Below, in pieces: positions 1 through 38,596 of a DNA stretch of 64,000 bases. The stretch spans positions 608,001 through 672,000 of the forward strand of contig CBDCXM010000008.1 of assembly GCA_965223855.1 (NCBI GenBank), written 5' to 3'. How positions within the stretch are numbered: position 1 is the first letter of the stretch; each line of letters opens with the position of its first letter. The notes under the pieces were generated by a model that was given only the letters and a program-made list of their open reading frames with translations, had not been told where the DNA came from and made no database searches. Origin of the DNA: Candidatus Multivoradales bacterium (lineage in GTDB: Bacteria; Acidobacteriota; Thermoanaerobaculia; Multivoradales; JAHEKO01). The position numbers and the translations under genes were made by a program.

Positions 1-110
1 TGGCCGCGGTCGGCGGACTGCTCGTCCTCTTCCTTCGCAGGCTTCGCCGCGCCGGGGCTGAGGTGCGCACCGCTCAGCCGCCACCCCCACCGCCACCACA
101 GCCCGCCTAG
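1..110 (+). CDS. 3' end of a membrane protein (partial)
   Basis: Frame starting at nt 3 reads AAVGGLLVLFLRRLRRAGAEVRTAQPPPPPPPQPA*: hydrophobic stretch, basic residues, Pro-rich tail. Stop TAG 108-110. Confidence 0.6.
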   Translation, partial: AAVGGLLVLFLRRLRRAGAEVRTAQPPPPPPPQPA

Positions 111-306
111 CCTGAACTTCTCGCGCCGGTGTGCTCTGGAAGGCCGTAGGTTGCTGAAGATACAAGGCTTCCGGTCGCGAGCACCGGAGGCATAGCTGTA
201 GCTACGTCGAGGAGCGCAGTGGCCGGAGAACGCAGTAGATTCATTGACATACGGCCTTCCTGAGTAGTCCGGTGAGCAGTGCAGTGGCGTGAGAGGTTCA
301 GGCTAA
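107..306 (+). mobile_element. Hairpin MITE-like repeat, copy 1 (diverged, about 200 bp)
   Basis: Aligns by eye to 37924-38108 and to the reverse complement of 12782-12966. Imperfect terminal inverted repeats CTAGCCTGAACTTCTCGCGCC / GGCGTGAGAGGTTCAGGCTAA. Confidence 0.85.
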
Positions 307-309
307 CCT

Positions 310-337: not shown

Positions 338-367
338 GGGTGACAGAACCTGAACCGGAGGATTCCC

Positions 368-1270: not shown

Positions 1271-1340
1271 GGCAGCGCCCGCCCCTCTCACGCGTCGGGC
1301 CGACGGCGAGAGGAGCGGGCCGGGTCGACTGCGTCGTCGC

Positions 1341-4170: not shown

Positions 4171-4199
4171 ACCGGGAGCGTCCCGCCGACACGCAGCGA

Positions 4200-4232
4200 C
4201 AAGCTTGAGGCGCTCCTGATGGAGCCTTGATG
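4200..4232 (-). promoter_or_regulatory. Three 11-bp-spaced direct repeats (candidate wHTH operator)
   Basis: Minus strand CATCAAGGCTC CATCAGGAGCG CCTCAAGCTTG, between the wHTH-TPR gene and the lipoprotein operon. Confidence 0.5.
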
Positions 4233-4236
4233 GTTC

Positions 4237-6156: not shown

Positions 6157-6266
6157 GGCGCTACCCCCGGAGTCAGCCTAGCAGCTGGGCGAGCGCGGAG
6201 GTTGTCGCTCACTCCACGGGTCGGATCCGGGACGCGTTCCTCCCGTCGGTCCGGGAACTCGGCGGT

Positions 6267-6767
6267 CTACCGGCCAGGCCCGGGAGCGACGATCTCCTCG
6301 AGATCGGCATCGGCGATGCGCCATCCCTGAGGCGTTTCCACCCACTCGAGTCGGAAGCGGTAGGCGTCGTCGCCGACACCCTGCCAGCCGCCCTGGAATC
6401 GCACCACCAGCAGCTGCACGGCCCGTTCGCCCTGGACCTCGATCTCGGAATCGAGCAGTTGCGGCGCCACGCGATCGGAGCGGCTGCGGTAGAGCACGAT
6501 CCCCCGGATGAGGTCCTGCCGATTGCGGGTCTCGAAGTCGAACTGCCAAGCCCGGAAGCGGAACGGCTCGGCAAAGGAGCGCGCCGCCTCCTCCGCCTTG
6601 AGCGCGCCATGGAGTGGATTCTCGTCCGGCCCCTTCTCTACCCGCTCCATCAGCGCCTCGAGCTCGCGGGCGATCCTCCGCTCGGCGCTCGAAGCCCAGT
6701 TCCACCACAGCAGTGCTCCCGCGACCACGACGAGAGCCAGCAGCAGGTTGCGCAGCAAAGGCGACAC
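6267..6767 (-). CDS. Membrane-anchored hypothetical protein, probable NTF2-like fold
   Basis: N-terminal TM; C-terminal beta strands ending GWRI, typical of NTF2/SnoaL-like domains. Confidence 0.6.
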   Translation of the reverse strand: MSPLLRNLLLALVVVAGALLWWNWASSAERRIARELEALMERVEKGPDENPLHGALKAEEAARSFAEPFRFRAWQFDFETRNRQDLIRGIVLYRSRSDRVAPQLLDSEIEVQGERAVQLLVVRFQGGWQGVGDDAYRFRLEWVETPQGWRIADADLEEIVAPGPGR

Positions 6768-6834
6768 GGCGGCACGTTAGCAGGCTGCCGAGGGGGCGCC
6801 GCCGGGCAACCCGCGAGTGGGGTACCCTTGCCTC

Positions 6835-7143
6835 ATGACCGAGACTCATGACGACCGCCCCTTCGAGGTCGTTTTCGCCACCGCCGACCCCGATCTGTTG
6901 CCGGTCATCGAATCGCTGCTGCGCGCTCACGACATCCCGTTCGACGTCCAGGGACGCAACTCGATGGCACAGCTGCCGGCCGGCGTCCTCGGCGGGCCGT
7001 TCGCCCGCACCGGGCTGGCGGCGCGCTTCCTCGTGCCGGCCGAGCACGCACAGGCGGCGCGGGAACTGCTGGCGGCCGACGACGCGGTTCCGGACCTGGA
7101 ACCCGAAGATGACTCCGACGAGAGCGGCTCCGCCGACGAGTAG
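6835..7143 (+). CDS. DUF2007-like small protein
   Basis: VIESLLRAHDIPF...VPAEHAQAARELL pattern; first gene of a 3-gene operon. Confidence 0.65.
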   Translation: MTETHDDRPFEVVFATADPDLLPVIESLLRAHDIPFDVQGRNSMAQLPAGVLGGPFARTGLAARFLVPAEHAQAARELLAADDAVPDLEPEDDSDESGSADE

Positions 7144-7146
7144 CCG

Positions 7147-7977
7147 GTGAGCACCGTCCGCATCGCTCTCGCGCAGCTCCACGCCAGCGGCGATCGCGAG
7201 GAGACGCTCGGACGCGCCCTCGACGCCATGGACCGTGCCGCCGACGCCGGCGCCCGCCTCATCGCCTTCCCCGAGGTCGCGCTCGACCGCTTCTTTCCTC
7301 AGCATCGGCGGAGCGAGGGCAGCGCCGTCGCCGGCGACCCCATTCCCGGCCCGTTGACCGAGCGCATCTCGAGCAGGGCGAGGCGACTCGGGCTGGTGAC
7401 CGTCTTCAACCTCTACGAGACGGCAGGTGACGGCAGGTTCTACGACAGCTCTCCGGTGTTCGACGCCGACGGCTCGCTGCTCGGGATCACCCGCATGGTC
7501 CACATCACCCAGTACGACTGCTTCTTCGAGCAGGACTACTACGACCCGGGCGACTGCGGCGCCCCGGTGTACGACACCGCCGTCGGCAAGGTCGGCGTGG
7601 CGATCTGCTACGACCGCCACTACCCGGAGTACATGCGTGCCCTCGGCGTCGCCGGAGCCGAGATCGTCGTCATCCCGCAGGCGGGCACGGTCGGCGAGTG
7701 GCCGGAGGGGATGTACGAGGCCGAGGTCCGCACCGCGGCCTTTCAGAACGGCTACTTCACGGCGCTTTGCAACCGGGTCGGTCGCGAGGAGGCCCTGGAG
7801 TTCTCGGGAGAGTCGTTCGTCAGCGACCCGGAGGGCCGCATCCTCGCGCGTGGCGCGACCGGCGAGGACGACCTCGTGCTCGCCGACTGCGACCTCGAAC
7901 TGGCGCGCAACTCGACGGCGAGACGGCTCTTCTGGCGCGATCGGCGGGGCGAGCTCTACGGTGACTGGCTGCGGTGA
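7147..7977 (+). CDS. Carbon-nitrogen hydrolase (nitrilase superfamily)
   Basis: FPE (catalytic Glu), AICYDRHYPE (catalytic Cys), NRVGRE and FSGESF motifs. The Lys position is occupied by Met. Confidence 0.9.
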   Translation: MSTVRIALAQLHASGDREETLGRALDAMDRAADAGARLIAFPEVALDRFFPQHRRSEGSAVAGDPIPGPLTERISSRARRLGLVTVFNLYETAGDGRFYDSSPVFDADGSLLGITRMVHITQYDCFFEQDYYDPGDCGAPVYDTAVGKVGVAICYDRHYPEYMRALGVAGAEIVVIPQAGTVGEWPEGMYEAEVRTAAFQNGYFTALCNRVGREEALEFSGESFVSDPEGRILARGATGEDDLVLADCDLELARNSTARRLFWRDRRGELYGDWLR

Positions 7978-8942
7978 CCGGCTGGCGTAGCGTCTCCCTG
8001 GCGGTGGCGCTGTCTATCGCTGCGACGGCCGCGTTCTCCCACGAGGAGCACGCGCAGGAGGAGAGGTCGCCCTTCATCCGCATCCTCGGCGTCGCTCAGG
8101 ACGGCGGCTTCCCGCACGCCGCCTGCGAGCACCGGGCCTGCCGCCAGGCCCGGGACGGCGAGATCCCCTCGCACCTCGTCTCGAGCCTTGCGCTGGTCCT
8201 TCCGGCAAGCGGCAAGGTCTACCTGTTCGACGCCACCCCCGATCTGCGCCGCCAGCTCGATCTGCTGCGCGACGTTCGCGATCTGCCGACGGACCGCGTC
8301 GATCGCGCGCCCCTAGACGGCGTCTTCCTGACCCACGCCCATATGGGGCACTACACCGGCCTTGCCTTCCTCGGTTTCGAGGCGGTGAGCGCTTCGGCGC
8401 TGCCGGTCTGGGGAACCGAGCGGATGGGTCGGTTTCTCAGCGAACACGGACCGTGGTCGCAGCTGGTCGACTTCGGCAACATCGAGCTGCGACGGATCGA
8501 CGAGAGGACCCCGGTCGAGCTCGGCGAAGGGGTCACCGTCCGCGCCTTCACCGTCCCCCACCGCGACGAGTTCTCCGACACTGTCGCCTTCGTCATCGAG
8601 GGACCCCGTCGCAAGGTTCTCTTCGTGCCGGACACCGACCGCTGGGAGAGCTGGCGGCCGGGCCTCGTCGAGCGACTCGGCGACATCGACGTGGCGCTCC
8701 TCGACAGCACCTTCTACTCGATGGACGAGCTGCCGGGAAGGAACCTCGAAGAGGCGCCGCATCCGTTGACCACCACCTCTATGGACCTCCTCCAGGGACT
8801 GGTCGACGACGGTCGAGTCGAGGTGCGCTTCCTCCACCTCAACCACTCGAACCCCGCACTGCTCGAGGACTCCATCGAACGCCGGGAGGTCGAGTCGCGA
8901 GGCTTCGCGGTCGCGAGCGAGGGCGACGAGATCGGGCTCTAG
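7974..8942 (+). CDS. Secreted MBL-fold hydrolase, PqqB-like
   Basis: Signal peptide; LGVAQDGGFPHxxC, DATPD, THAHMGH, VPHRDE and HLNHSN motifs. Confidence 0.8.
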   Translation: MTGWRSVSLAVALSIAATAAFSHEEHAQEERSPFIRILGVAQDGGFPHAACEHRACRQARDGEIPSHLVSSLALVLPASGKVYLFDATPDLRRQLDLLRDVRDLPTDRVDRAPLDGVFLTHAHMGHYTGLAFLGFEAVSASALPVWGTERMGRFLSEHGPWSQLVDFGNIELRRIDERTPVELGEGVTVRAFTVPHRDEFSDTVAFVIEGPRRKVLFVPDTDRWESWRPGLVERLGDIDVALLDSTFYSMDELPGRNLEEAPHPLTTTSMDLLQGLVDDGRVEVRFLHLNHSNPALLEDSIERREVESRGFAVASEGDEIGL

Positions 8943-10126
8943 TCGTCGATGTAGCCCATGCGGGTGCGCACCTTCGCCACCCCGCGCACCCGGACATCCA
9001 CTTCGCGCCAGCTTCCGTCGCGCTTCGCATTGCTCGGGTAGTAGCCGAGCACGTACTGGTTGCGCAGCTCTTCGAGAATCTCCGCGAAGGCGTCGGGAAG
9101 CTCGTCGGGGTCATCGAGCTCTTCGATCCGTCCGCCGCTCTCGTTGACGGCACGACGCAGCCGCCGGTACTCCTCCTGGTTCTCCTCGTAACCTCTCCAG
9201 GCGGAGTTGAACTCCGGGGGGCCCGACTGCCCATCGTGGCGCAGGTAGATCCAGTAGACGACCGCCTGACTCCGCTGCGCCTTCCAGAGCACATCTTCCA
9301 TGTCGAGCAGGCTGTGCACGTCCGAGCCGTCGGTGAAGAGCACCACCACGCGGCGTCCCTGCCGGCCGTCGAGGAGCTTGAGGCTGGCGTAGAGGTAGTC
9401 GTTGATCGCCGTACCGCCGGTGGGCTCGACCGATGAGAGCGCCGATTCGAGGATCGCCGGGTCCTTCGTGAAGGGGGTCGAGCCGAGCATGCGATCGGAG
9501 AAGAGCAGCAGCTTCGCCTCGTCGAGTTCACTCATCCCCTCGAGAAAGATGCGCGCCCCCGACAGGGCGGAGTCGAATCGCTCCCCCTCCATGCTGGCGC
9601 TGCAATCGAGCAGCAGGACGGCCGTCATCGGCACGTTCTCCGCCTCGAAGGTCACGATGTTCTGTCGCTCCCCTCCGTCGAAGATGCGGAAAGCATCTCG
9701 ATCGAGCCCGGACACCCTCTCGCCCTCCGCCGTCACATTGACGTAGAGCTGGCGCAGCTCGATCTCGAGCGAGTCATCGACCGAGAAGGTGCCTGTCATG
9801 CGGCTCGCCTCGACTCGGACGCCCCCCTCGAGACGGGCTACCACCCGCAGGGTGTGCTCCACGTTGTCGTAACCGACGTCGGCCACCACTTCCCAGGGAG
9901 CCTCGGTATCGACACCGACGCTTCGACCGTCGACGAAAAACTCGACCGCCAGGACCGGCAGCTCGCTCTCGACGTGGGCGGCGATCTCGACCGGCCCGTA
10001 GACCGCCACGCCCGCATCCGGGCTCAGGAACCAGGCGAGATCCTCGGCCGCGACCGGGCCGGTGAGCCCAACCGCTACGGAAGCTACGGCGATCGCCAGC
10101 GCCACCAGAGAGGTTCGAAAGGTCAT
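8939..10126 (-). CDS. Secreted Ig-like + VWA domain protein (Acidobacterial VWFA type)
   Basis: Start re-assigned to ATG 10126 (signal peptide; ATGA overlap with the TPR gene). MIDAS DCSAS, FTDG and LRNQYVLGYYP motifs. Confidence 0.85.
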   Translation of the reverse strand: MTFRTSLVALAIAVASVAVGLTGPVAAEDLAWFLSPDAGVAVYGPVEIAAHVESELPVLAVEFFVDGRSVGVDTEAPWEVVADVGYDNVEHTLRVVARLEGGVRVEASRMTGTFSVDDSLEIELRQLYVNVTAEGERVSGLDRDAFRIFDGGERQNIVTFEAENVPMTAVLLLDCSASMEGERFDSALSGARIFLEGMSELDEAKLLLFSDRMLGSTPFTKDPAILESALSSVEPTGGTAINDYLYASLKLLDGRQGRRVVVLFTDGSDVHSLLDMEDVLWKAQRSQAVVYWIYLRHDGQSGPPEFNSAWRGYEENQEEYRRLRRAVNESGGRIEELDDPDELPDAFAEILEELRNQYVLGYYPSNAKRDGSWREVDVRVRGVAKVRTRMGYIDD

Positions 10127-11211
10127 TGTCCGGTCGCTTCGCCGCCCACGGCTGCCGTGTTCGCCATCAGCAGGACGCTCCTGCCCTTCGCCGCCGCCTC
10201 CCGCAGCCGCGAGCGGGTCTCTTCGAGCGCCTGCTGCGGCCAGCGGGTGTAGAAGTAGCGCTCCGACTCCGACTCGGCCTGCTGCGGCAGCGCGCGGAGC
10301 GCGGTCAGCGCCTCGGTCGGCCTCCTGCGGCGTTCGAGCAGGAACGACTCGAGGATCGCCTGGCGCGAACTGTCCGGGTACTCGCGAGCTGCAGTCTTCG
10401 CAATCTCGAGTCCAGCGTCCCCAGCCAGCCGCCGTGCCCGTTCCTGCAGCGCCAGGCGGCGCATCCAGTCGGGGATCTCCATCGACAGCACCAGCTCGAG
10501 CTCTTCGAGCGCCTCCGCCCTTTCCCCCATCCGGGCGGTGACGAGAGCGAGGCGCAACCTCGGCTCGGGAAGCTCGGGCGCGAGGCGTACCGACTCCCTG
10601 TAGTGGTGCTGCGCCTGCCCCAGCTCGCCCCGACGTTCGTACATCGCCGCCAGACCGAGATGGGCCGCCATCTGACCGGGATACAGATCGAGCGCCTCCG
10701 AGTAGAGCGCGGCCGACCGGCGAACGACCAGAGCCTGCTGCAGATGTCCGCCCAGACTCGCGAGCAGGTCGGACGCAAGGACCTTCGACGTTCCCTCCTG
10801 CGAGTTCTTGGCGTAGAAGTGCGCCAGCTCGGCGGCCATCGTTCGGGAGTGGGTCGCAAGCCGCATCTTGCGCTGCGAGGCGTAATAGCCGCCGGCGTCG
10901 TGGTGGAGCATCATGATCGGCACGAGCACCTCGATCGAGCTGCGGCCGATCGTCTCCCGGATGACGGCCAGCTTGGACTTCCACATCTCCTCGACGTCAC
11001 GGGTCGCCTTCTCGGGGCGCACAAGGCTCGACTCCATCGCCTCCAGCGCCTCGAGAGCCGCATCTCCCTCGCCGGCCGCCCACATCTGCAACACCTGCGG
11101 ATAGGCGCTGCGCACCTTCGCGTCGATCTGCGGTCCGGCGGCCCCCGCCGGCGCCACGAGAAGCGCCCCGGCGACGACGGCTCGGAACAGCGATGGGCGT
11201 AGACGGCTCAT
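10123..11211 (-). CDS. Secreted TPR protein
   Basis: Signal peptide; TPR motifs (AHLGLAAMYERRG, PRLRLALV). Confidence 0.8.
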   Translation of the reverse strand: MSRLRPSLFRAVVAGALLVAPAGAAGPQIDAKVRSAYPQVLQMWAAGEGDAALEALEAMESSLVRPEKATRDVEEMWKSKLAVIRETIGRSSIEVLVPIMMLHHDAGGYYASQRKMRLATHSRTMAAELAHFYAKNSQEGTSKVLASDLLASLGGHLQQALVVRRSAALYSEALDLYPGQMAAHLGLAAMYERRGELGQAQHHYRESVRLAPELPEPRLRLALVTARMGERAEALEELELVLSMEIPDWMRRLALQERARRLAGDAGLEIAKTAAREYPDSSRQAILESFLLERRRRPTEALTALRALPQQAESESERYFYTRWPQQALEETRSRLREAAAKGRSVLLMANTAAVGGEATGQ

Positions 11212-11429
11212 GGGGCGACAAGGCTAACCATGGTGCACCCTGCGCGCAAGCCGATCGGCAAAGGACGCCTTGCGGCGTGCGCAGGAAGGCCCGGTGCGGG
11301 GTACTGGAGGGCGGATGCCCGGTTGCGCCGAGCCTCTCTGGGTTCGATGTGAGCGTCAACTCGACGAAGCCCGGGGCTATTCCCGCTTCGCAGCGATCGG
11401 GCCGTTTCCGGCCGTATACTCGCTCCGCC

Positions 11430-12785
11430 ATGAAGAGCCGACTCCTCTCCGCCGTCGTTGTCGCCCTGCTCGCTTCCACCGCGTCCGCCTCCGCCGGCGG
11501 CGACTGGGTCCGCTATGTCGAGCAGACCTCGGGGCGCATCGACGCCGCGCCGACCGTCGGTATCTCCGACATCGAGGAGAAGGACCTCGCGGCGGCCGAT
11601 CTCGACAAGGACGGCGACGTCGATCTCGTGATCGTGCGCAAGGAGCCCTTCGCCGAGCCGGGTGGCAAGCGCAACGTGCTGCTGATGAACGTCGGTGGCG
11701 TGATGACCGATCTGACCGCCTCGCTGGCCCCGGACCTCCTCGACCTTACCGACGACCGCGACGTCGCCATCGTCGACGTCGATGGAGACACCTGGCTCGA
11801 CGTCATCACTTCGCCCACGTCGTACAAGAACGCCCAGCCTCACCAGCCGCGGGTCTACATGAACCTGGGAGAGTCGGCCGGTGTCTGGCAGGGCCTCGAT
11901 TTCGAGCCCGGCCGGCTGCCGACCTTCTCACCGGCACCCAACTTCTGCGCCATCTCCGTAGGTGACGTCACCGGCGACGACGCACCCGACATCTTCTTCT
12001 CGGACTACCAGAACGACCTCGAGGACCGGCTGCTGATCAATGACGGCAACGGCTTCTTCACCGACGAGACCGCCACCCGGCTCACCCCGAGCATGTCCGA
12101 ATCGGTGTTCGGCACCGACAGCGCGATCATCGACGTCGATGGCGACGACGATCGCGACATCATCAAGAACAACTCCTCCGGCAACTTTCCGCCGCCGGGT
12201 ACACAGCCCGAGGTGAGTGTCTTCTATAACGACGGTACGGGCCACTTCGACTTCGAGCAGGAGGTCTACACGGTCGCTCCCTACATGATCCAGGAGGCCG
12301 ACCTCAACAACGACGGCCGGGTAGACATCTACGTCGTCGATGACGGTCAGGACGCCTACCTGCTCAACCAGGGCAACGACGGCGCCGGCCACGTCATCTG
12401 GAGCACCCGCATCGTCACTAGTAGCCCGAAGACGGCGTTCTTCGGCGGCAACACCGCCGCCGGCGATCTCGACCAGGACGGTTTCGTCGATATCTACGTC
12501 GCCGACGTCGATACCGATATCGAGGGGTGCGACCGCGAGGCGGTGGCGCTGCGCAACCTCGGCAATGTGCCGAACGTCACGCTGACCGATCCGCTCGGTG
12601 GTGCCTCCCGCGACTGGATGCCGACCGGGGTCTACGACATCGCGATCTTCGACATCGACGGTAACGGCCTGGACGACATCTGGGCGGCGACCTGTACCGG
12701 CAACCAGGTCTTCATGGCGACTGCCGTCTTCGCCGACGGCTTCGAGAGCGGCGACACCTCCGCCTGGTCGGCGACGCTTCCCTAG
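11430..12785 (+). CDS. Secreted FG-GAP/VCBS beta-propeller with C-terminal FADGFESGD tail
   Basis: ATG 11430 with signal peptide; repeated DLDxDGDxD Ca-binding motifs; ends VFADGFESGDTSAWSATLP. Confidence 0.85.
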   Translation: MKSRLLSAVVVALLASTASASAGGDWVRYVEQTSGRIDAAPTVGISDIEEKDLAAADLDKDGDVDLVIVRKEPFAEPGGKRNVLLMNVGGVMTDLTASLAPDLLDLTDDRDVAIVDVDGDTWLDVITSPTSYKNAQPHQPRVYMNLGESAGVWQGLDFEPGRLPTFSPAPNFCAISVGDVTGDDAPDIFFSDYQNDLEDRLLINDGNGFFTDETATRLTPSMSESVFGTDSAIIDVDGDDDRDIIKNNSSGNFPPPGTQPEVSVFYNDGTGHFDFEQEVYTVAPYMIQEADLNNDGRVDIYVVDDGQDAYLLNQGNDGAGHVIWSTRIVTSSPKTAFFGGNTAAGDLDQDGFVDIYVADVDTDIEGCDREAVALRNLGNVPNVTLTDPLGGASRDWMPTGVYDIAIFDIDGNGLDDIWAATCTGNQVFMATAVFADGFESGDTSAWSATLP

Positions 12786-12966
12786 CCCGGACTTCTCACG
12801 CCGCTGCAGCCTGGTAGGCCGTATGTCACTGAATCTACTTCGTTTTCCGGTCGCTGCGCTCCTCGACGTAGCTACGGCTATGTCTCCGGTGCTCGCGACC
12901 GGAAGCCTCGCATCTTCAGCAACCTACGACCTACCAGACCACACCGGCGTGAGAAGTCCGGGCTAG
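12782..12966 (-). mobile_element. Hairpin MITE-like repeat, copy 2 (185 bp)
   Basis: Perfect 22-bp terminal inverted repeats CTAGCCCGGACTTCTCACGCCG; 5 differences from copy 3 by manual comparison; both CTAG ends contain stop codons of convergent genes. Confidence 0.9.
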
Positions 12967-13946
12967 CTTCCCCCGAGCACCCGGCGCAGCGACGCCTGAT
13001 CGATGTTGCCACCGCTGAGGTAGACGGCCACCGTTGTGCCCGAGAGGCGCTCGCCGAGGCGCCTCACCCCCGCGACGCCACACGCCCCGCCCCCCTCGAC
13101 CAGGTTGTGGGTCGTCTCGAGCAGCAGCCGGATCGCCGCGGCGATCTCGCCCTCCTCGACGGTGACGAAGTCGGCCAATCCCTCCTGCAGTCGCGGGAAG
13201 GTGCCGTAGACGTCTCCTGTGGCCAGCCCGTCGGCGAGCGTCTCGCCGACCGGTCTCGGCGTCCGTCGCCCGGCGTGCCAGGAGTCGTGGAGCGTCGGTG
13301 CGGCCGCGGCCTGGACGCCGTAGACCGGGACCGTGGGCGCGAGCGCCCCGGTGACCGTCAACGCACCCACCGCCTGAGAGCCGCCACCGGCGGAGAGGAC
13401 GAACGCCTCTACCTCCGGGGCCTCGCGCAGCACCTCCAGAGCGATGGTGGCGGCCCCGGCCAGGACCCCTTCGTGATCGGTCGAGTGCACGAAGGTCGCG
13501 CCCCTCTCATCTCGAATCTCCAGCGCCTTCTCGAGCGACTCGTCATAGGTGGCGCCGCTCACGACGAGCTCGGCTCCCAGCGCCTCCATCGCGCGATTCT
13601 TCTCCGGGTTGTTGCCATGCGGCACGCAGACGACCACCGGCACCCCGGCCCGTGCACACGCCCAGGCGAGTCCCTGGCCGTGGTTGCCGCGGGTGGCCGT
13701 GACGAGCCCTCGAGAGCGCTCGGCGGCGTCGAGGAGCGACAGGGCGACGATGCCGTTGCGGACCTTGAACGAGTTGGTCGGCTGGTGATTCTCGTGCTTG
13801 ACCAGCAAGCGGACGCCGTGCCCGACCGCTTCGTCGAGCAGCGGGTAGTTCCTCAACGGCGTCGGCGGCAGCAGCTCGCGGATCACCCGCTCCGCCGCCT
13901 CTACGGCTTCGAAGTCGAGCGCGAGAGCCGCGGCCGGATCACTCAC
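12963..13946 (-). CDS. PLP-dependent threonine/serine dehydratase family protein
   Basis: KHENHQPTNSFKVR, TRGNHG, GGGS and LSGGN motifs; no ACT domain. Confidence 0.85.
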   Translation of the reverse strand: MSDPAAALALDFEAVEAAERVIRELLPPTPLRNYPLLDEAVGHGVRLLVKHENHQPTNSFKVRNGIVALSLLDAAERSRGLVTATRGNHGQGLAWACARAGVPVVVCVPHGNNPEKNRAMEALGAELVVSGATYDESLEKALEIRDERGATFVHSTDHEGVLAGAATIALEVLREAPEVEAFVLSAGGGSQAVGALTVTGALAPTVPVYGVQAAAAPTLHDSWHAGRRTPRPVGETLADGLATGDVYGTFPRLQEGLADFVTVEEGEIAAAIRLLLETTHNLVEGGGACGVAGVRRLGERLSGTTVAVYLSGGNIDQASLRRVLGGS

Positions 13947-14859
13947 CCGCCGCCGCCTCCCTCTCGCTCACGATCGAATCGTAGAGAAAGGCGACCACGG
14001 CATCCGGCGGCAGGAACGAAGTCCACTCCTCGTCCCACGGTGCGGTCGGCTTGGCGGCGATCACCTCTTCGCGGCTCTTGCCGGCCGCGACGAGCGGGCT
14101 GATGGCGTCGTGAAGCTCCTGCATCAACGCCCTGTAGGCCACCAGGTCCGCCTTCGTCGACAGCGGTCCATGACCGGGAATGATCCGTGTCTCGTCGTCG
14201 ATCATCCCGAGCACCGCGTCGGCGTGGCGGATCATCCCGGCGAGGGTGCCTCCGGTGCCGACGTCGATGAACGGGTACATCCCGGCGAACATCGTGTCGC
14301 CGAGGTGAACGACGTTGTCCTCCACGAAGTGAACGATCGAATCGCCGTCGGTGTGGGCGCTGCCCTCGAGGTGGAGAATGCGGATCGTGCGGCCGTCGAG
14401 GTGGAAGGTCATCGACTCACGGAACGTCAGCGCCGGCTTGGCGACTTCGGGGGCCGCGTCGGTCCGCATGTCGAACGTCTCGATGTACTGCGGCGCCGAC
14501 ATCTTCTCGCGCACGTTCTCGTGGCCGACGATCCACACCCCCGCCTGACCGAGGTTCTCGTTGCCGCCGGTGTGATCGCCGTGCCAGTGCGTGTTGAGGA
14601 CGAAGTCGATCGGCCGGTCGGTCACCGCTGCGACCGCCTCGAGGATCGCCTCCGTCGCCGGCGCGTACTGGTCGTCGATCAGGAACGTCGCCGACGGGCC
14701 GACGGCGAGGCCGATGTTGCCGCCTCTGCCGGCGAGCATGTAGATCCCCTCCGCCACCTCCTCGGTCGTGATCTCCGGCGCCTCCTGGCCGAAGGCCGCC
14801 GTCGCCGGAACTGTCGCCAGAACGAGAGTCGAAACCGCTGCTGCGAAACTTCGCTTCAT
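13939..14859 (-). CDS. Secreted MBL-fold metallo-hydrolase (cyclase-like)
   Basis: Signal peptide; NTHWHGDHTGGN, AHTDGD and IIPGHG motifs. Confidence 0.85.
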   Translation of the reverse strand: MKRSFAAAVSTLVLATVPATAAFGQEAPEITTEEVAEGIYMLAGRGGNIGLAVGPSATFLIDDQYAPATEAILEAVAAVTDRPIDFVLNTHWHGDHTGGNENLGQAGVWIVGHENVREKMSAPQYIETFDMRTDAAPEVAKPALTFRESMTFHLDGRTIRILHLEGSAHTDGDSIVHFVEDNVVHLGDTMFAGMYPFIDVGTGGTLAGMIRHADAVLGMIDDETRIIPGHGPLSTKADLVAYRALMQELHDAISPLVAAGKSREEVIAAKPTAPWDEEWTSFLPPDAVVAFLYDSIVSEREAAAGE

Positions 14860-14963
14860 TGTGCACTCCTCCTGCGCCGATCATAGAGCCTGCCGTCGCC
14901 GCCTGCAGCCCACCCTCCATAAACAGCGATCAGTAAAGAGAATTTCGGCTGCGTCTGGAGCGT

Positions 14964-14992
14964 TTGACAAGCCCCGCCCGATCCTCCAACAT
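14964..14992 (+). promoter_or_regulatory. Putative sigma70-type promoter
   Basis: Perfect TTGACA at 14964-14969, 17-nt spacer, weak -10 CAACAT. Confidence 0.4.
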
Positions 14993-15116
14993 ACCCTCCA
15001 TGCGAAGAATCCACGTTCCCGACAATGTGGCAACCACCGACGGATCAGGGCGGTCCGCGGGGTTGGGCGAGGTGGGGCTCGCCATCAAGGGGTACGCCCA
15101 GAAAGGAGGTGGTCCT

Positions 15117-15161
15117 GTGGAGTTACATCAACCAGGTTTTGTGGAGGTGGCGACCCGTTAG
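15117..15161 (+). CDS. Candidate 14-aa peptide MELHQPGFVEVATR
   Basis: GTG follows the AAAGGAGGT SD by 6 nt; in frame with upstream ATG 15000 (53-aa alternative). Confidence 0.35.
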   Translation: MELHQPGFVEVATR

Positions 15162-15238
15162 CGGGTACCTCCAACGCCTCCGTGGTTCTGGAGCCCCGTG
15201 ATTCGCGGGAAACCCCTCGCCACCGAGACAAACCAAGG

Positions 15239-15270
15239 AAGCCCCGGCCGGAAACGGCCGGGGCTTTTCT
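15239..15270 (+). terminator. Intrinsic terminator
   Basis: AAGCCCCGGCCG-GAAA-CGGCCGGGGCTT followed by TTCT; GNRA loop. Confidence 0.85.
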
Positions 15271-15279
15271 CGTTCCGGG

Positions 15280-15732
15280 CTAACGGTCCAGGAGAGACCG
15301 GATCTCGACCGGACCCTGGACGACGGCATGATCGTAGGCCGTCAGGCCGTCGTGATCGCGAAGCCCCAGACTCGTGCCGTGGTCGAGCAGCAGGCCGATC
15401 GTCCGCACGAAGATCGGATGCACCCGCTCCGCTTCCAGTTCCCCGCACGCGATCACAGCGTGCATGAGGGCGGTCATGCCCGAATCGTCCTGAGCGTCGG
15501 GATCGGCACCGGCAGCCAGCAGGTCTGCAACGACGAGAGCCTGCCCCCAGAAGCTCGCGGCCATGAGGGCAGTCGTTCCGTCCTCGTCACAGGAATCGAC
15601 ACTCGCGCCTTCCGCAAGGAGCCGCCTCACGACCTTCCTGTCGCCAGACGATGCCGCATCGCACAGCTGCGAGCCGGAGGTGAACTGAGGAGTCGGAACC
15701 TCGACCGAGCGGAGACGCCGCTGAGCGGGCAT
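15280..15732 (-). CDS. Ankyrin-repeat protein
   Basis: DEDGTTALMAA, DDSGMTALMHA and DHDGLTAYDHA ankyrin motifs. Confidence 0.85.
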   Translation of the reverse strand: MPAQRRLRSVEVPTPQFTSGSQLCDAASSGDRKVVRRLLAEGASVDSCDEDGTTALMAASFWGQALVVADLLAAGADPDAQDDSGMTALMHAVIACGELEAERVHPIFVRTIGLLLDHGTSLGLRDHDGLTAYDHAVVQGPVEIRSLLDR

Positions 15733-16152
15733 CTACTCGATCCAGCGCAGAGCGCCGCCTGAGTGGCGCCGGTCGCTGCCATGCCTGCCTCGGCGTGGCC
15801 CGGCGGGCCGGCGATCGTTCGGGCGTTGTGGAAGGGAGTTCCAGGTGTCGTCCCAGTCACCCTCGTCGGGAGATTCCCACTCGTCCTCGTCGCTGTCCCA
15901 GTCGTCCTCGTCCGAGTCACCTTCCGAGTCCTCGTCAGGGTCGTCCATCGGATCGTCGTCCCAGTCCTCGTCCTCGAACTCGGACTCGGACTCGGACTCG
16001 GACTCGGACTCGAGAACACTCGACTCTCCGATCGCCGGAGCACGGCCGCGAACGGCGATACCGGGCCAACCGATGCCGGGAAATCCGAAGGCCTCTTCCG
16101 CCTCTCCGGCACCGGTGCAGGTCGGTCGATCGACAACAAGCTTCATCACCAT
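15733..16152 (-). CDS. Small highly acidic, low-complexity protein
   Basis: AAGGAGG RBS 6 nt before ATG 16152; D/E/W-rich tract then Arg-rich tail; its stop abuts the ankyrin start. Confidence 0.6.
   Translation of the reverse strand: MVMKLVVDRPTCTGAGEAEEAFGFPGIGWPGIAVRGRAPAIGESSVLESESESESESEFEDEDWDDDPMDDPDEDSEGDSDEDDWDSDEDEWESPDEGDWDDTWNSLPQRPNDRRPAGPRRGRHGSDRRHSGGALRWIE
15979..16012. repeat. (CTCGGA)5 hexamer tandem repeat encoding SE repeats
   Basis: Five perfect copies plus a partial copy, read directly. Confidence 0.9.
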
Positions 16153-16391
16153 CCGAGGCCTCCTTGTGCCTGGGGACGAAAGACCCGTTGAGGCGCTCAA
16201 CGCGTCTGTCTGAAACGCTGTCGCTGACGAGACGCTATGCCCCCATTCTCGGCCCTGTCAAGCGCTTCCTGGACAGCGGAATCCGGGGGCGAGCGGCCGC
16301 AAAACAAGGTGCAGGAGGCGGGTCGAGACCGCCACTCGCCGGAGAAGAGCGCTCAGGGGTTCCCGACGGAGCCGACCGCCAGCCTGCCGGT

Positions 16392-19300
16392 TCACTCCGA
16401 AGGCGACACGGTGATCTCGTCGCCCGCCGAGAAGGCGGCAAACTCGGGCGCGTACATCGACTGCAGCGTCGCCGGGCCGACCCGGAAGGTACCGCCGAGG
16501 TTCGCCCGCAGACGGTAGCGCAGCGTGTACTCGCCCACCGGCAGCCACTCGAAGAAGAAGTCGGTGCCGCTGTCGCGGACCTGCTCGTACCAGCCGACGC
16601 CCGTGCCCCAGCGGTAGCCGGAACGCACCGCCTCCGGTTCGAGACCCGCCGCCCGCGGATCGCGCAGGTGAACGTATTCTGCCGCGTGGCTCGCACGGAT
16701 CGACAGCTCGACCTCGACCTGGTCTCCCGGCTCGAGAGTGGCCCCCGCCTCGATCGGCTCCAGGCGCCACTCGGTGCCGTCATGCGTGCGTCGCCAGTAA
16801 CGGCGCTCGACACCGAAGAAGTCGCTCGACGCTTCCTCGGGCATCGTCTCGGTCGAGTAGTGCCAGGTCGCCGAGGCGAAAAGCAGCCCGGGGGTGTCCT
16901 TCGTCACCGTCACCCGACCGTGACCGGGAGTGACCGCTTCACCCGCCACCACCCACTGCTGCTTGGCCGTGTCCGGATCGTCGGGAAGGAAATCGAAGCT
17001 CCGGCGCTCGCCGGCCAGCTCGACCGTGGCACGCTCCTCGACTCCGAGCTCCCCCTCGGCGGAGAGGTAGTGAATCAGGGAGTAGAGCACCTCCGCCGTG
17101 GCGCGGGTCGACTTCCAGTGGCTGAGCTTCTTGTTGAGCAACAGCCAGTGAACGAGGCCACGGCGCCGGGGATCGTCGCCGTCGAGTTCGCCGAGGACCC
17201 TCAGTGCGAAGGCGTGGGTCTCGATGGAGTCGTTGTACCAGAGCCAGGCGCGCTCTTCCGGGGCCCAGTAGGTGCCGAGATCCTCGGACTCCTTCGCCGA
17301 GTCCATGACGCTGTCGAACACGAGGCGCGCATCGCCCGATCGACCGGCCCGCTCGAGGGTCAGTGCGAGCTGCCCCTTGATGAGAGGCGAGTGGTTCTTC
17401 CAGTGGCGGAACGAGAGTTCGAGCATCCGCTCGCGATCGGCGGCCGTGAACACACCCCCGGTCCAGCTCTCGTCCGGGTAGCTCGACAGGACGAAGTTGA
17501 GCATCGTCATCAGCTCGTGCCCCCGCTCCTGCTCCTCCAGTTCCGCAATGAAGCGATCGAAGTAGTGCCGCCTGAGATAGCCCCAGGCGGGCTCGACCAG
17601 CTCCCGCGGCACGTCGACCCCGAACTCGAGCGCTCTCGACAGGCCGCCGAGGATGTAGAGGGTCATGTAGGGCGAGGGCGGCCCGCCCGGCCACCAGGGG
17701 AAGCCGCCGATCGCCGTCTGCGACTCGGTCAGCCGCGCCAGCGCCGCGTCCCGTTCTGCGCGGGCCACTTCGGGATCGAGAAGCCGGATGAGCCGCTCGT
17801 CGCCCGCCGCGCCTCCGGCGGCCGCGCCCAGCCACGGTGTCTCGACGAGCGCCATCGAGCGATTCGGATCGTCTCGATCCCACGGCTCGAGCCGGGTGTC
17901 GCGTTCGCTCAACCGGCGGCCGAGCTCGGCAACGAGCGGATGTGCTTCGAACACCTCGCGCACGATCCCGGTCGAAACGAAGCGGTTGAGCGTCTGCTCG
18001 GTGCACTCGTAGGGAAAATCGACCAGATACGGGAGCGCCGAGAGCACCGACTGAAAGAGCTGGCCGTCGAGGGTGACGACGAACTGTTCGTCGACTCGCG
18101 TCGCGTCACCGCCCTCCGCCAGAGCGGCGAACTCGAGCAGTCGCTCGGCGGTGCCGTCGAGCGCCGCGAAGCGCGACTCGATCAGGTGCACCCGCCCGGG
18201 CAGGAGCGGCAGCGGCCGCAGCTCGCCGTCGCTCCAGTCGCCGGCGGTGCCGACGGCGCGCACGGCCACCTCGCCGACGCCGTTGGGGGCCGCCACCGGC
18301 AGTGAGAACGTCTCGGCTTCTCCGGGGCCGAGCGCGAACGGAAGGTCGCTGCGCCGCGGCCCGTCGAGGTCGAACGCCGCCGCCACGCTCTCCTCGGTCT
18401 CGGGATCGAGAAGGTCGAAGTCCAGCCGGCCGGAGAGCGCCGACTCGCCGCTGTTCTGCACGACAACCCGCAGCTCGGCTCGATCGCCCTCCCTGAGGAA
18501 CCGTGGCAAGTACGGCCTTACCAGCAGATCCTTGGTCGTCCTCACCTGGCGCTCGAGCCGGCCGTAGTCGAGCTCCGTCGTCAGAGCGTGCACCCACACG
18601 CTCCACTCGGTCACCGAGTCGGGCACGGTGAACTCGAAGACGACCGAGCCGTCTTCGCCCGTCAGCAGGTGCGGCTCCCAGAAGGCGGTCTCCGAGAAGT
18701 CGGTGCGCAGTTCGGGTGCACCGGCATCGGTAGCTCCATCCTCCTCGATCTGCCCGCGCTCCGCCTCCCCGTCTGCCAGGTAGCCCAGCGCCTCGACGCC
18801 GTCCGACTGAGCCGCTACTTCCATCATCGCAGCGGGTGCTTCCACCGCCATCGGCGTCGGTGGTCCTCCCGCCCGGGCGAGCCGCCGGCCGGGCCCCCCG
18901 ATGCCGTAGTCATCGAACGCCTTCAAGCGATCGTCGCGGTAGTACGGCCGATCGGGAAGCGGCGACCAACCCTTCTCCCAGCGCAGCACCGGGTGCTGCG
19001 AGCCGAGCCCGCTCTGCCAGGCGTCGAGCCTCGCTCCCGTCCTGGCGAACGGAGCCGGCCGCGGCGGGGTGTGCGAGGCGAACAGATCGAGACTGCGGTC
19101 GAACATGTAGGCCAAGAGCTCCGCCGCCGCGGTGCCGAGAGACTCGCCGTCCGCGGTGGCCACCTCGATCCGCCAACGTTCTTCGTCTCCGGGCCGGAGC
19201 CGATCGCGGAAGGTCGAGAAACTCAGGCGGAGATCCTCGTCGCGCGGCGGCACCGCGACATGGGCGGTCATCGACAGCGGCTGGTAGTCGCGAACGGAGC

Positions 19301-36580: not shown

Positions 36581-36646
36581 AGGCGCGCGGGCGCGGTGGC
36601 CTCGCGGCATCCTAACCCGACTGCCGAGCGCCGGTACAATCGCGCG

Positions 36647-37927
36647 ATGAACGCTCGTTCCAATGCCACCGGGCCGCTTCTGGCCTCGCTTCTCGTCGTC
36701 GCCTGCAGCGCCCCCGAGTCCACGCCCCCCAACCTTGCCGGGTCGCCTGACCTCGCCGGCCCGTGGCGTGCGGTCCTCGCTTCGCCGGGAGGCGAACTGC
36801 CGTTCACCCTCGAGATCTCCGGGGAAGGCGGCACCCTCGAAGCCTCGATCGCCAACGGCGACGAGCACGCCCCCACCACCGGCGTCGAGGTCGAAGGGAA
36901 CCGGGTGACGATCGGCTTCGACTGGTACGACTCGCGGATCGTCGCCACGCTCGAGGGAGACGACGGTATGCGGGGCGAGTGGACGCGAGCCTCGGCCGGA
37001 GGCACGGTTTCCCGCCTCCCTTTCTCGGCCACGAGAGGAGTGGCGCCCCGCTTCCGGGCTGTCACCGAGGACCGGCCGGCCGTCGCGACCACCGACATCG
37101 GCGGAGTGTGGAGGGTCGAGTTCACCGACGAGGACGGCACCGAACCGGCACAGGGGGAGTTCGTCCAGGACGGTACCCGCGTGACCGGGACCTTTCTCAC
37201 CCCGACGGGCGACTACCGCTTCCTCGAGGGAAGCTACGAGGAGGGGTTGCTTCGCCTGTCGACCTTCGACGGCGCACACGCCTTCCTCTTCTCCGCGCGA
37301 GTCGACGAGGACAGCACCCTGACGGGCGACTTCTGGTCGCGCGACAGTTACCACGCGACCTGGACCGCATCCCGGGCCGAAGAAGGCGAGGTCATCCTGC
37401 CGGACGCCTGGAACCTCGCCGGACTCACCAACGATGAAGGCAGTTTCTCGTTCTCCTTCGCGGACAGCGACGGCAACACCCTCTCGAGCGACGACCCGCG
37501 GTTCGACGGCAAGGTCGTGCTCGTCAACATCTTCGGTACCTGGTGCCCGAACTGCAACGACAAGGCGCCGCTGCTGGCGGAATGGCACGACCGGTGGGCC
37601 GACCGCGGTCTCGAGATCGTCGGGCTCGCCTACGAGTTCTCCGGCGACCCGGAGCGCGATCGCCTCTACGTCTCGAAGTTCGCCGAGCGCCACGGGATCG
37701 CCTTCCCGCTGCTGCTCGCGGGCATCAGCGACAAGGCGAAGGCCGCCGAGACGCTCCCGGACCTGAACGCCGTCATCGCCTTCCCGACGACCGTCTTCAT
37801 CGGTCGCGACGGCAGGGTTCGCAAGATCCACTCCGGCTTCTCGGGACCGGGGACCGGCTCGCACTACGACGAGCTGGTGGCGGAGCTGGAGGGTCTGATC
37901 GAGACCCTGCTCGACGAGCCGGCCTAG
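36647..37927 (+). CDS. TlpA-like thiol-disulfide oxidoreductase lipoprotein
   Basis: VVAC lipobox; N-terminal beta domains; GTWCPNC and AFPT motifs. Confidence 0.88.
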   Translation: MNARSNATGPLLASLLVVACSAPESTPPNLAGSPDLAGPWRAVLASPGGELPFTLEISGEGGTLEASIANGDEHAPTTGVEVEGNRVTIGFDWYDSRIVATLEGDDGMRGEWTRASAGGTVSRLPFSATRGVAPRFRAVTEDRPAVATTDIGGVWRVEFTDEDGTEPAQGEFVQDGTRVTGTFLTPTGDYRFLEGSYEEGLLRLSTFDGAHAFLFSARVDEDSTLTGDFWSRDSYHATWTASRAEEGEVILPDAWNLAGLTNDEGSFSFSFADSDGNTLSSDDPRFDGKVVLVNIFGTWCPNCNDKAPLLAEWHDRWADRGLEIVGLAYEFSGDPERDRLYVSKFAERHGIAFPLLLAGISDKAKAAETLPDLNAVIAFPTTVFIGRDGRVRKIHSGFSGPGTGSHYDELVAELEGLIETLLDEPA

Positions 37928-38108
37928 CCCGGACTTCTCACGCCGGTGTGGTCTGGTAGGTCGTAGGTTGCTGAAGATACAAGGCTTCCGGTCGCGAGCA
38001 CCGCAGGCATAGCCGTAGCTACGTCGAGGAGCGCAGCGACCGGAAAACGAAGTAGGTTCAGTGACATACGGCCTACCAGGCTGCAGCGGCGTGAGAAGTC
38101 CGGGCTAG
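37924..38108 (+). mobile_element. Hairpin MITE-like repeat, copy 3 (185 bp)
   Basis: Same terminal inverted repeats as copy 2, opposite internal orientation; CTAG ends are the stops of the TlpA and YbaK genes. Confidence 0.9.
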
Positions 38109-38596
38109 CCCGCCCGGGAAGAGAGGTCGGCCCACGGGGCGCCGCTCGCCTCCGAGAGTTCGGCCGGCGTCGTCTCGAAGATGCTGTGCGGGCCTCCCGC
38201 GGCGGCCCAGATCCGGTCGAAGCGCTCGAGGCCACGGTCGAGCCAGGTCACGACAGGACCCTCGTGACCGAGCGGCGGAACGCCGCCGATCGCAAAGCCG
38301 GTCGCCTGGCGCACGAAATCCGGGTCGGCGCGACCAACGGGCTCGCCGGCCAGCGCCGCCAGCCTGTCGAGATCGACCCGGTCGGCGCCGCTCAGGACGA
38401 CCAGCAGGGCCCGCCCCGTCTCCCTGCCACGGAAGATCAGTGACTTCGCGATCTGCGCCGTCGAGCAGCCGACGGCGTCTGCCGCCTCCTGCGCCGTGCG
38501 TGTGGAGCCGGGCAGGCTCTCCACCCTGCGGTCGAGACCGAGGAAATCGAGCGCTGCCTGCACCCGCTCCGGTCCGCTGAGGCGAGCCGGCGTCAC
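38105..38596 (-). CDS. YbaK/EbsC family aminoacyl-tRNA deacylase
   Basis: STRTAQEAA, QIAKSL, TGFAIGGVPPLGH and WAAAG motifs. Confidence 0.9.
   Translation of the reverse strand: MTPARLSGPERVQAALDFLGLDRRVESLPGSTRTAQEAADAVGCSTAQIAKSLIFRGRETGRALLVVLSGADRVDLDRLAALAGEPVGRADPDFVRQATGFAIGGVPPLGHEGPVVTWLDRGLERFDRIWAAAGGPHSIFETTPAELSEASGAPWADLSSRAG

What the first reader, a model, noticed from the sequence alone, without database searches (positions are those of the whole stretch)
12782..12966. Dispersed 185-bp element that sits on the shared CTAG double-stop of convergent genes
Seen: three copies (107-306, 12782-12966, 37924-38108). Copies 2 and 3 are in opposite orientations and have perfect 22-bp terminal inverted repeats beginning CTAG. 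Five of the six ends are stop codons of adjacent genes; in copies 2 and 3 both ends are the TAG stops of convergent genes. At 8939-8942 two convergent genes share one uninterrupted CTAG, which looks like an empty target. Inference: a non-autonomous element inserts into overlapping TAG stops and duplicates CTAG, so both proteins stay intact (a safe-harbour strategy), and it may provide a bidirectional terminator. No transposase is in the window. The CC(C/T)G(G/A)A inner ends recall IS1380-type ends from memory; not verified.
Basis: partly seen in the sequence, partly recalled or inferred. Interest (0 to 1): 0.8.

Follow-up and report, generated by a model that had tools for sequence, protein, structure and literature searches.

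The report
IS1380-type hairpin MITE at CTAG
The 185-base repeat is a small gene-less jumping element of the IS1380 insertion-sequence family that inserts into the rare four-letter site CTAG, which is why it so often sits exactly on TAG stop codons without damaging the neighbouring genes; it is a neat but fairly ordinary piece of selfish DNA.

Summary
The window has three copies (107-306, 12782-12966, 37924-38108). Copies 2 and 3 have perfect 22-bp ends starting CTAG, and five of the six ends are stops of long ORFs. The CTAG at 8939-8942 is shared by two convergent ORFs.

Genome-wide there are 28 full copies (21 of about 185 nt, 7 of about 200 nt) plus dozens of solo or shortened ends.

The ends (CCYGnnnTTCTCAC) match the terminal inverted repeats of IS1380-family insertion sequences in genomes of the same order. 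Ten of 11 such ISs are flanked by identical 4-bp duplications: CTAG x6, CTAA x2, TTAG x1, TTAA x1. So this is an IS1380-family MITE that duplicates a 4-bp YTAR target, not an IS630 or IS5 element. A congener (G003) has the orthologous junction empty, with a single CTAG.

No IS1380 transposase is in this 92%-complete assembly.

The stop-codon link is real but mostly follows from the target. Compared with CTAG sites outside gene interiors, "at least one end is a stop" is not significantly enriched (11/25 vs 318/1090, p=0.12). "Both ends are stops" is enriched (4/25 vs 20/1090, p=0.0015). There is no evidence of terminator function.

The whole-length hairpin is kept by compensatory changes and folds better on one strand; this is unexplained.

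This scan's earlier notes describe the same kind of element in at least 21 other genomes.

The parts
12782..12966 (+). MITE copy 2 (185 nt): CTAG duplication at 12782-12785 and 12963-12966, 18-bp inverted repeats inside it, and a whole-length hairpin. The better-folding strand is the - strand.
37924..38108 (-). MITE copy 3 (185 nt), 97.3% identical to copy 2 in the opposite orientation; CTAG at both ends.
107..306 (-). MITE copy 1, the 200-nt variant with a 15-nt insert; left flank CTAG, right flank CTAA.
8939..8942 (.). Unoccupied CTAG shared as the stop by convergent ORFs 7974..8942 (+) and 8939..10984 (-); a potential target site.
11193..12785 (+). FG-GAP repeat protein gene whose TAG stop is the left CTAG of copy 2; it ends in a conserved tail ...FADGFESGDTSAWS...
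12963..13946 (-). Threonine dehydratase-like gene whose TAG stop is the right CTAG of copy 2.
36596..37927 (+). Redoxin/ResA-like gene whose TAG stop is the left CTAG of copy 3.
38105..38596 (-). YbaK-like (aminoacyl-tRNA editing domain) gene whose TAG stop is the right CTAG of copy 3.
3..110 (+). 3' end of a gene (428 open codons on the contig) whose TAG stop is the left CTAG of copy 1.

Best explanation
[quoted passage not shown] It has no gene. Its terminal 14-18 bp (CCYGnnnTTCTCAC...) are the binding ends of a clade of IS1380-family transposases found in related Acidobacteriota. These enzymes insert into the 4-bp palindromic target YTAR (mostly CTAG) and duplicate it, so every copy is bracketed CTAG...CTAG.

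CTAG reads TAG on both strands and is very rare in this 68% G+C genome. About a fifth of all CTAGs are gene stops. An insertion into a stop-codon CTAG rebuilds TAG on each side and leaves both neighbouring proteins unchanged. Such insertions survive, whereas insertions inside genes are lost. The stop-codon association is therefore mainly target choice plus purifying selection, strongest at junctions of convergent genes.

Shown: the copies, their ends, the match to IS1380-family ends, the 4-bp duplications, one orthologous empty site, and the absence of a transposase in this assembly.

Inferred: mobilisation in trans by an IS1380-family transposase that is unassembled, lost or visiting, and selection as the cause of the site distribution.
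For: (1) Copies. There are 28 full copies at 73-100% identity to copy 2. Three of them (copies 2, 3 and C9:1899942) are 97-100% alike, which suggests recent activity.

(2) Ends. In 20 loci fetched around NF033539 (IS1380) hits in the same order, 11 hold a 1.63-1.76 kb IS bounded by CCYGnnn(T/A)(T/A)YTCA(C/T)-type ends. One example, CCCGGATTTCTCAC, differs from the MITE's CCCGGACTTCTCAC by 1 nt. The 20 nt at the left end of one G041 MITE copy are identical to the left end of the IS in L068.

(3) Target duplication. Ten of those 11 ISs have identical 4-bp flanks (CTAG x6, CTAA x2, TTAG, TTAA). MITE copies in other genera show CTAG/CTAG in 13 of 15 and TTAA/TTAA in 1 of 15. In G000, 8 of 25 copies have CTAG/CTAG and the rest differ by point changes.

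(4) Empty site. In G003 the orthologous junction reads GGAGG-CTAG-CGCCCGC, against GACGG-CTAG[MITE]CTAG-CGCTGG in G000. The left gene's TAG lies in that CTAG in both.

(5) Patchy spread typical of mobile DNA. The element is found in 7 of 44 other genomes of the family and 0 of 4 of the genus.

(6) Stops.
- 15 of 50 ends of full copies are strict gene stops, and 16 of 44 examined solo ends are.
- The per-side background for all CTAGs is 352 of 3304.
- Three clear, plus 2 borderline, of 22 ends of the full-length ISs are also stops of ORFs of at least 369 codons.

(7) Background of the 1616 CTAGs outside elements: 20 shared stops, 298 single stops, 526 inside genes, 772 other.
Against: - No IS1380-family transposase is in this genome: 0 candidates in a 92% complete assembly. 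None is in G046 either, which is 99% complete and has at least 13 copies. The two IS1380-family genes of the congener G002 have different ends. So the driver is not identified.
- Similarity to the ISs is limited to the terminal 20-22 nt; the 150-nt core has no known source.
- In G000 the outermost base of the flank varies more than the other three (for example TTAG/CTAG pairs). Taken alone, that would also fit a 2-bp TA duplication.
- Gene calls behind the statistics are my own GC3-based heuristic (3539 stops, 3010 genes, 81% coding), not a proper gene finder.
- The double-stop enrichment (4/25 vs 20/1090) is not explained by target choice alone.
Confidence: 0.85

Rival explanations
1. The element is more than a tolerated parasite. 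It prefers, or is kept at, the shared stops of convergent genes because its long hairpin acts as a two-way transcription stop, insulator or mRNA 3'-end stabiliser.
For: - Both ends are stops in 4 of 25 copies, against 20 of 1090 non-interior CTAGs (odds ratio 10, p=0.0015). Occupancy of shared-stop CTAGs is 4 of 24, against about 2% for other classes.
- The hairpin is very stable (-114 and -138 kcal/mol).
- It is kept by double changes in 36 of 60 pairs.
- It folds better on one fixed strand in 28 of 28 local copies and 14 of 15 foreign copies, as expected if a single strand (RNA or ssDNA) is under selection.
Against: - 14 of 25 copies touch no stop. Copies also lie between divergent and tandem genes.
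- There is no T tract and no terminator-like hit.
- The better-folding strand is not tied to the direction of the gene that reads into it.
- Junctions of convergent genes are simply the least harmful places for any insertion, so selection alone can give the enrichment.
- No RNA data were available.
Confidence: 0.12
2. An IS630/Tc1-mariner-type MITE that inserts into the TA of CTAG and duplicates only TA, with its own terminal G and C rebuilding TAG.
For: Pairs such as TTAG/CTAG, ATAG/CTAG and TTAG/CTAT in G000 fit a variable outer base. That IS630 chooses CTAG is recalled from memory, not taken from any call.
Against: - No DDE_3 (PF13358) match in G000 or G046. The DDE_3 loci in G006 and G039 carry no such ends.
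- Elements with the same ends have TTAA/TTAA, CTAA/CTAA and TTAG/TTAG flanks. A fixed terminal G...C with a TA duplication cannot give these.
Confidence: 0.02
3. A REPIN-like palindromic repeat moved by a REP-associated tyrosine (Y1/HUH) transposase acting on single-stranded hairpins.
For: - 16 weak Y1_Tnp (PF01797) matches in G000, and at least one in each of the 5 element-bearing genomes tested.
- The whole-length hairpin has a strand bias.
Against: - Only 1 of 16 Y1 genes has a copy within 2.5 kb, and none is flanked by the element.
- The element carries a 4-bp duplication and inverted-repeat ends identical to those of DDE-type IS1380 elements.
- Orientation against GC skew is 19:9, p=0.087.
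Confidence: 0.02

Closest known systems
IS1380 family insertion sequences (NCBIfam NF033539), here the clade with CCCGGATTTCTCAC-type ends found in same-order Acidobacteriota genomes (G096, G134, G061, G155, G087, G058 and others)
   Same: The terminal 14-20 nt; a 4-bp duplication of a YTAR target (CTAG, CTAA, TTAG, TTAA); frequent placement on stop codons.
   Different: The element is 185-200 nt against about 1.7 kb, has no transposase gene, and has a core that is a whole-length hairpin unrelated to the IS interior. No such IS is in this genome.
piggyBac transposons of eukaryotes. IS1380 transposases are used as their outgroup in PMC10813416 (passages read).
   Same: A 4-bp palindromic target that is duplicated; TTAA is one of the YTAR sites used here.
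   Different: This is a bacterial element with CTAG preferred. Precise excision, the piggyBac hallmark (recalled from memory), was not tested.
Bacterial MITEs such as Correia/NEMIS of Neisseria and RUP of pneumococcus (review PMC2229807, passages read)
   Same: Short, gene-less, bounded by inverted repeats, mostly intergenic, and RNA stem-loops formed by pairing of the two ends.
   Different: A different transposase family and target. Here the duplicated target itself is a stop codon on both strands.
IS5 (IS5 family), said from memory to duplicate a 4-bp YTAR target
   Same: The target class and duplication length.
   Different: No DDE_Tnp_1 (PF01609) match in G000 or G046. The ends match IS1380-family elements, not the DDE_Tnp_1 loci examined.

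Membership tests
MITE of the IS1380 family | Terminal inverted repeats the same as those of IS1380-family insertion sequences | tested here: met
   11 of 20 fetched IS1380 loci carry ends of the type CCYGnnn(T/A)(T/A)YTCA(C/T). The best differs by 1 of 14 nt from the MITE. There is a 20-nt identity between a G041 MITE end and the L068 IS end.
MITE of the IS1380 family | Target-site duplication of the family's length (4 bp here) | tested here: met
   10 of 11 ISs have identical 4-bp flanks. Among MITE copies, 8 of 25 in G000 are CTAG/CTAG, and 14 of 15 foreign copies have identical flanks.
MITE of the IS1380 family | Short, with no transposase gene | tested here: met
   185-200 nt. The only open frame (47 codons in copy 2, read by eye) loses its ATG in G046 and some G041 copies.
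MITE of the IS1380 family | An empty site in a relative with one copy of the target | tested here: met
   The orthologous junction on G003:C3 has a single CTAG and no element. This is one site only, at about 70% flank identity.
MITE of the IS1380 family | Cognate transposase available in the same cell | tested here: not met
   NF033539 gives 0 candidates in G000 (92% complete) and 0 in G046. ISs are often unassembled in such genomes.
MITE of the IS1380 family | Transposition by that transposase | not testable with these tools
   Needs a transposition assay.
IS630/Tc1-mariner MITE | 2-bp TA duplication and an IS630-type (DDE_3) partner | tested here: not met
   TTAA/TTAA, CTAA/CTAA and TTAG/TTAG flanks on elements with the same ends. 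No PF13358 match in G000 or G046.
REP/REPIN with RAYT | A Y1 transposase gene flanked by the repeats, and no target duplication | tested here: not met
   1 of 16 Y1 loci has a copy within 2.5 kb and none is flanked. A 4-bp duplication is present.
Intrinsic (rho-independent) terminator | A G+C-rich hairpin followed by a T run | tested here: not met
   0 terminator-like sites in 12500-13300. The flanks after the hairpin are coding sequence of the opposing gene.

The most novel reading that the evidence does not exclude
The conserved 150-nt core is not filler. The whole-length hairpin is under selection on one specific strand, shown by wobble pairs falling almost only on that strand across four genera and by compensatory changes in 36 of 60 pairs. 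This would mean the element works as a single-stranded molecule. Either it is an RNA structure that ends or stabilises the transcripts of both convergent neighbours, making it a mobile two-way insulator that hosts retain at shared stop codons. Or it is a folded single-stranded DNA form that this piggyBac-related transposase clade needs for moving short elements.
Probability: 0.12. Interest if true: 0.6.

Novelty: new member of a known kind. Interest (0 to 1): 0.33.

Why it matters
This is a clean example of how a transposon's target choice can make it nearly harmless. In a G+C-rich genome CTAG is rare (1652 sites in 4.5 Mb) and often is a stop codon. A 4-bp duplication of a palindrome that reads TAG on both strands restores the stops of both neighbours.

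It ties a widespread hairpin repeat of uncultured Acidobacteriota to the IS1380 (piggyBac-related) family and fixes that clade's target as YTAR.

For annotation, it explains many short 'hypothetical' ORFs and contig breaks at gene ends. It also marks places where a gene's stop codon lies in the duplicated target at an element's edge.

It is not a new kind of system. I found no paper describing IS1380-derived MITEs or a CTAG target for IS1380 in three full-text searches, but this scan's own earlier notes list the same kind in at least 21 other genomes.

Tried and rejected
- Rfam at gathering thresholds over the whole window: 0 matches.
- Sequencing runs: 4 holders from one study, and no RNA holder listed. 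Laying their contigs on window 1-20000 showed contigs stopping at 12755 and 12937, the edges of copy 2. No joint across the element appeared among the 15 listed (76 more were not shown). So there is no empty-site or expression evidence from reads.
- Exact 20-nt end pattern in 185,579 species genomes: 2 hits in unrelated Acidobacteria. By my rough estimate about 4 are expected by chance, so I disregarded them.
- Paralogous empty sites: the flanks of the 28 copies match elsewhere only through a conserved gene tail.
- Longer elements with these ends: none in G000 or G046. All paired ends lie 2-199 nt apart and the rest are solo.
- Solo ends: 58 solo hits were found. I examined 44 and dropped 14 (5 were ends of full copies; 9 I judged weak by eye). 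The 44 do not cluster into other families.
- Transposase families DDE_3, DDE_Tnp_1 and Y1_Tnp were searched and rejected as partners.
- The IS1380 gene in G006 has a MITE-type end 38 nt upstream of its ORF, but pointing away from the gene; I took this as a neighbouring insertion.
- The IS1380-family genes of G002 have other ends.
- Replication-strand bias of the better-folding strand: 19:9, p=0.087, not significant.
- The orthologous sites of copies 2 and 3 and of C8:134111 in the four congeners are rearranged, so they give no strict empty sites. Stop codons of the orthologues vary between TAG and TGA.
- A 22-nt stretch after the G002 orthologue of the threonine dehydratase gene looks like a collapsed copy; this is suggestive only.
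- Supplementary files of papers were not seen.

Full report
**What is there.**
The window is G000:C8:608001-672000, part of a 4.52-Mb, 68% G+C, 9-contig assembly that is 92% complete. Its nearest named relative for one flanking protein is a Thermoanaerobaculia (Acidobacteriota) MAG at 70% amino-acid identity, so the taxon is an inference.

- Copy 2 (12782-12966) is 185 nt with perfect 22-bp inverted ends that begin CTAG.
- Copy 3 (37924-38108) is 97.3% identical in the opposite orientation.
- Copy 1 (107-306) is a 200-nt variant.

Five of the six ends are the TAG stops of long ORFs. The CTAG at 8939-8942 is shared by two convergent ORFs of 322 and 681 codons.

**Genome-wide picture.**
BLAST gives 57 HSPs that merge into 35 loci. 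I aligned 28 full-length copies: 21 of about 185 nt and 7 of 197-201 nt carrying a 15-nt insert. They are 73-100% identical to copy 2.

A 15-nt end motif with up to 2 mismatches occurs 103 times. These fall into 23 pairs (one a 2-nt artefact), all 199 nt apart or less, and 58 solo hits. I examined 44 of the 58 solo hits and dropped 14: 5 are ends of full copies whose other end failed the pattern, and 9 I judged weak by eye. The 44 share only the terminal 20-30 nt or are truncated or collapsed copies, such as a 27-nt and a 47-nt mini-version.

**Which transposon family.**
The genome has no DDE_3 (IS630), no DDE_Tnp_1 (IS4/IS5) and no IS1380-family transposase. It has 16 weak Y1_Tnp matches, but these are not linked to the element.

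In the same taxonomic order, NF033539 (IS1380) matches 53 of 151 genomes, 36 of them above the curated cut-off. Of the 20 loci fetched, 11 contain a 1.63-1.76 kb element bounded by ends of the same type as the MITE's. For example, CCCGGATTTCTCAC compares with the MITE's CCCGGACTTCTCAC. Ten of these 11 have identical 4-bp flanks: CTAG x6, CTAA x2, TTAG x1, TTAA x1. One has TTAG/CTAG.

Similarity between MITE and IS stops after 20-22 nt.

MITE copies fetched from four other genera (G006, G034, G041, G046) have the same architecture. Thirteen of 15 have CTAG/CTAG flanks and one has TTAA/TTAA. The variable triplet inside the end changes on both arms together.

These flanks exclude a TA-only duplication with fixed terminal G and C. 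I had first favoured that model because of the TTAG/CTAG pairs in G000.

**Empty site.**
For the copy at C8:102118-102302, both flanks lie on one contig of the congener G003, 158 nt closer together than in G000.
- The G003 junction reads GGAGG-CTAG-CGCCCGC, against GACGG-CTAG[185 nt]CTAG-CGCTGG in G000.
- In G003 the left gene (at least 715 open codons) stops on the TAG of that CTAG. The right gene stops on a TGA that begins 11 nt after the first base of the CTAG.
- So the target there was a stop-codon CTAG. Whether it was a shared double stop before insertion cannot be told.

The other orthologous sites examined are rearranged, and the orthologues stop on TAG or TGA. At C8:134111 the G000 gene runs 7 codons beyond the stop of its G001 orthologue and ends on the TTAG at the element's edge.

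**Stop-codon association.**
I used a strict criterion of my own: at least 80 open codons, GC3 of at least 0.78, and GC3>GC1>GC2. This gives 3539 gene stops, of which 1016 are TAG.

| Set scored | Result |
|---|---|
| Ends of the 25 copies whose two ends both pass the pattern | 15 of 50 are gene stops |
| Those 25 copies, at least one end a stop | 11 of 25 |
| Those 25 copies, both ends stops | 4 of 25 |
| Examined solo ends | 16 of 44 are gene stops |
| All CTAG sites, per side | 352 of 3304 are gene stops |

The 1616 CTAGs outside elements divide into 20 shared stops, 298 single stops, 526 inside genes and 772 other. Fisher tests:

| Comparison | Element copies | Background | p |
|---|---|---|---|
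| At least one stop, vs all CTAGs | 11/25 | 318/1616 | 0.009 |
| At least one stop, vs CTAGs not inside genes | 11/25 | 318/1090 | 0.12 |
| Both ends stops, vs CTAGs not inside genes | 4/25 | 20/1090 | 0.0015 |

It is met for single stops and not for double stops.

The autonomous ISs behave alike. Three clear and 2 borderline of their 22 ends are stops of ORFs of at least 369 codons.

The simplest reading is target choice plus loss of harmful insertions, with junctions of convergent genes the least harmful places.

**The hairpin.**
The whole element folds end to end: -114 kcal/mol on the + strand and -137.7 on the - strand for copy 2, with z = -13 and -17.
- Among 36 copies (21 local, 15 foreign), 36 of 60 predicted pairs show changes on both sides.
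- The same strand folds better in 28 of 28 local copies (by 9-38 kcal/mol) and in 14 of 15 foreign copies.
- On that strand there are 218 G.U cells against 38 A.C cells. This count leans on a structure predicted from that strand.
- The bias is not tied to the direction of the neighbouring gene, nor significantly to the GC-skew strand (19:9, p=0.087).
- No promoter-like or terminator-like consensus is found at copy 2.

I cannot explain why a cut-and-paste-type MITE keeps a strand-biased, whole-length hairpin. This is the one feature that leaves room for a function.

**Distribution.**
At E of 1e-8 or better the element is found in 7 of 44 other genomes of the family and in 0 of 4 of the genus. 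Many of these genomes are fragmented MAGs, so absence is not shown.

**Known or new.**
IS1380 transposases are used as the outgroup of piggyBac in PMC10813416 (passages read). MITE reviews (PMC2229807, passages read) describe hairpin-forming MITEs of other families.

My three full-text searches returned the following:
- 'IS1380' + 'miniature inverted-repeat': 8 papers. I read passages of four and saw only the listing of the other four; none that I saw describes an IS1380 MITE.
- 'IS1380' + 'CTAG' + 'target site': 0 papers.
- 'IS1380 family' + 'target site duplication': 12 papers held, 8 listed, all about resistance plasmids or gut IS surveys by title.

So I found no description in print. Subscription papers, ISfinder and supplements were not searchable.

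After I had reached the IS1380 reading, the scan's own notes showed 24 earlier findings of IS1380-type CTAG MITEs in at least 21 other genomes. One is a 185-bp hairpin family. One note favours a TA duplication, which my flank data contradict.

**Verdict.**
It overstates the specificity for shared stops, and the terminator idea is unsupported. This is a new member of a known kind.

Noticed in passing
window 12727-12782, and more than 60 other gene ends in G000: A roughly 55-nt conserved 3' coding tail (...FADGFESGDTSAWS...) ends the FG-GAP protein left of copy 2 and dozens of other genes, here and in many related genomes (80-98% DNA identity). No Pfam or NCBIfam model covers it. It looks like an undescribed C-terminal sorting or anchor signal. 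Three MITE copies abut such tails.
   Followed up: partly
window 37924-38596: The YbaK-like gene together with copy 3 is missing between the orthologous flanking genes in the congeners G001 and G002. There the redoxin gene is followed within 2-33 nt by the next convergent gene.
   Followed up: partly
G000:C8:134111-134310 (outside the window): The gene left of this copy runs 7 codons past the TAG used by its G001 orthologue and stops on the TTAG at the element's edge. So here the stop in use lies in the duplicated target.
   Followed up: partly
all 28 copies; window 12782-12966 as the example: One fixed strand of the element folds 9-38 kcal/mol better than its complement in every local copy and in 14 of 15 copies from other genera. 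Unexplained.
   Followed up: partly
G000:C9:2694796-2694823, C9:1950529-1950575; G046:C5:3826828-3826880: Collapsed mini-versions (27, 47 and 53 nt) made of the two ends only, and about 40 solo ends. These are likely deletion products of the long palindrome.
   Followed up: partly
G000, 16 loci (for example C9:452747-453064): Sixteen weak matches to the Y1/IS200-type transposase domain in ORFs of 246-840 codons, unlinked to the MITE.
   Followed up: partly
L004 2040-2065 (G002:C45): Directly after the TAG of the G002 orthologue of the threonine dehydratase gene lies a 22-nt stretch resembling a left end joined to a right end of the element. This may be a relic at the site that holds copy 2 in G000.
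   Followed up: no
G000 contig C9: Cumulative GC skew has its minimum near 0.78 Mb and its maximum near 3.0 Mb. Contig C8, which holds the window, has negative skew throughout. The contigs therefore look like pieces of one chromosome.
   Followed up: no
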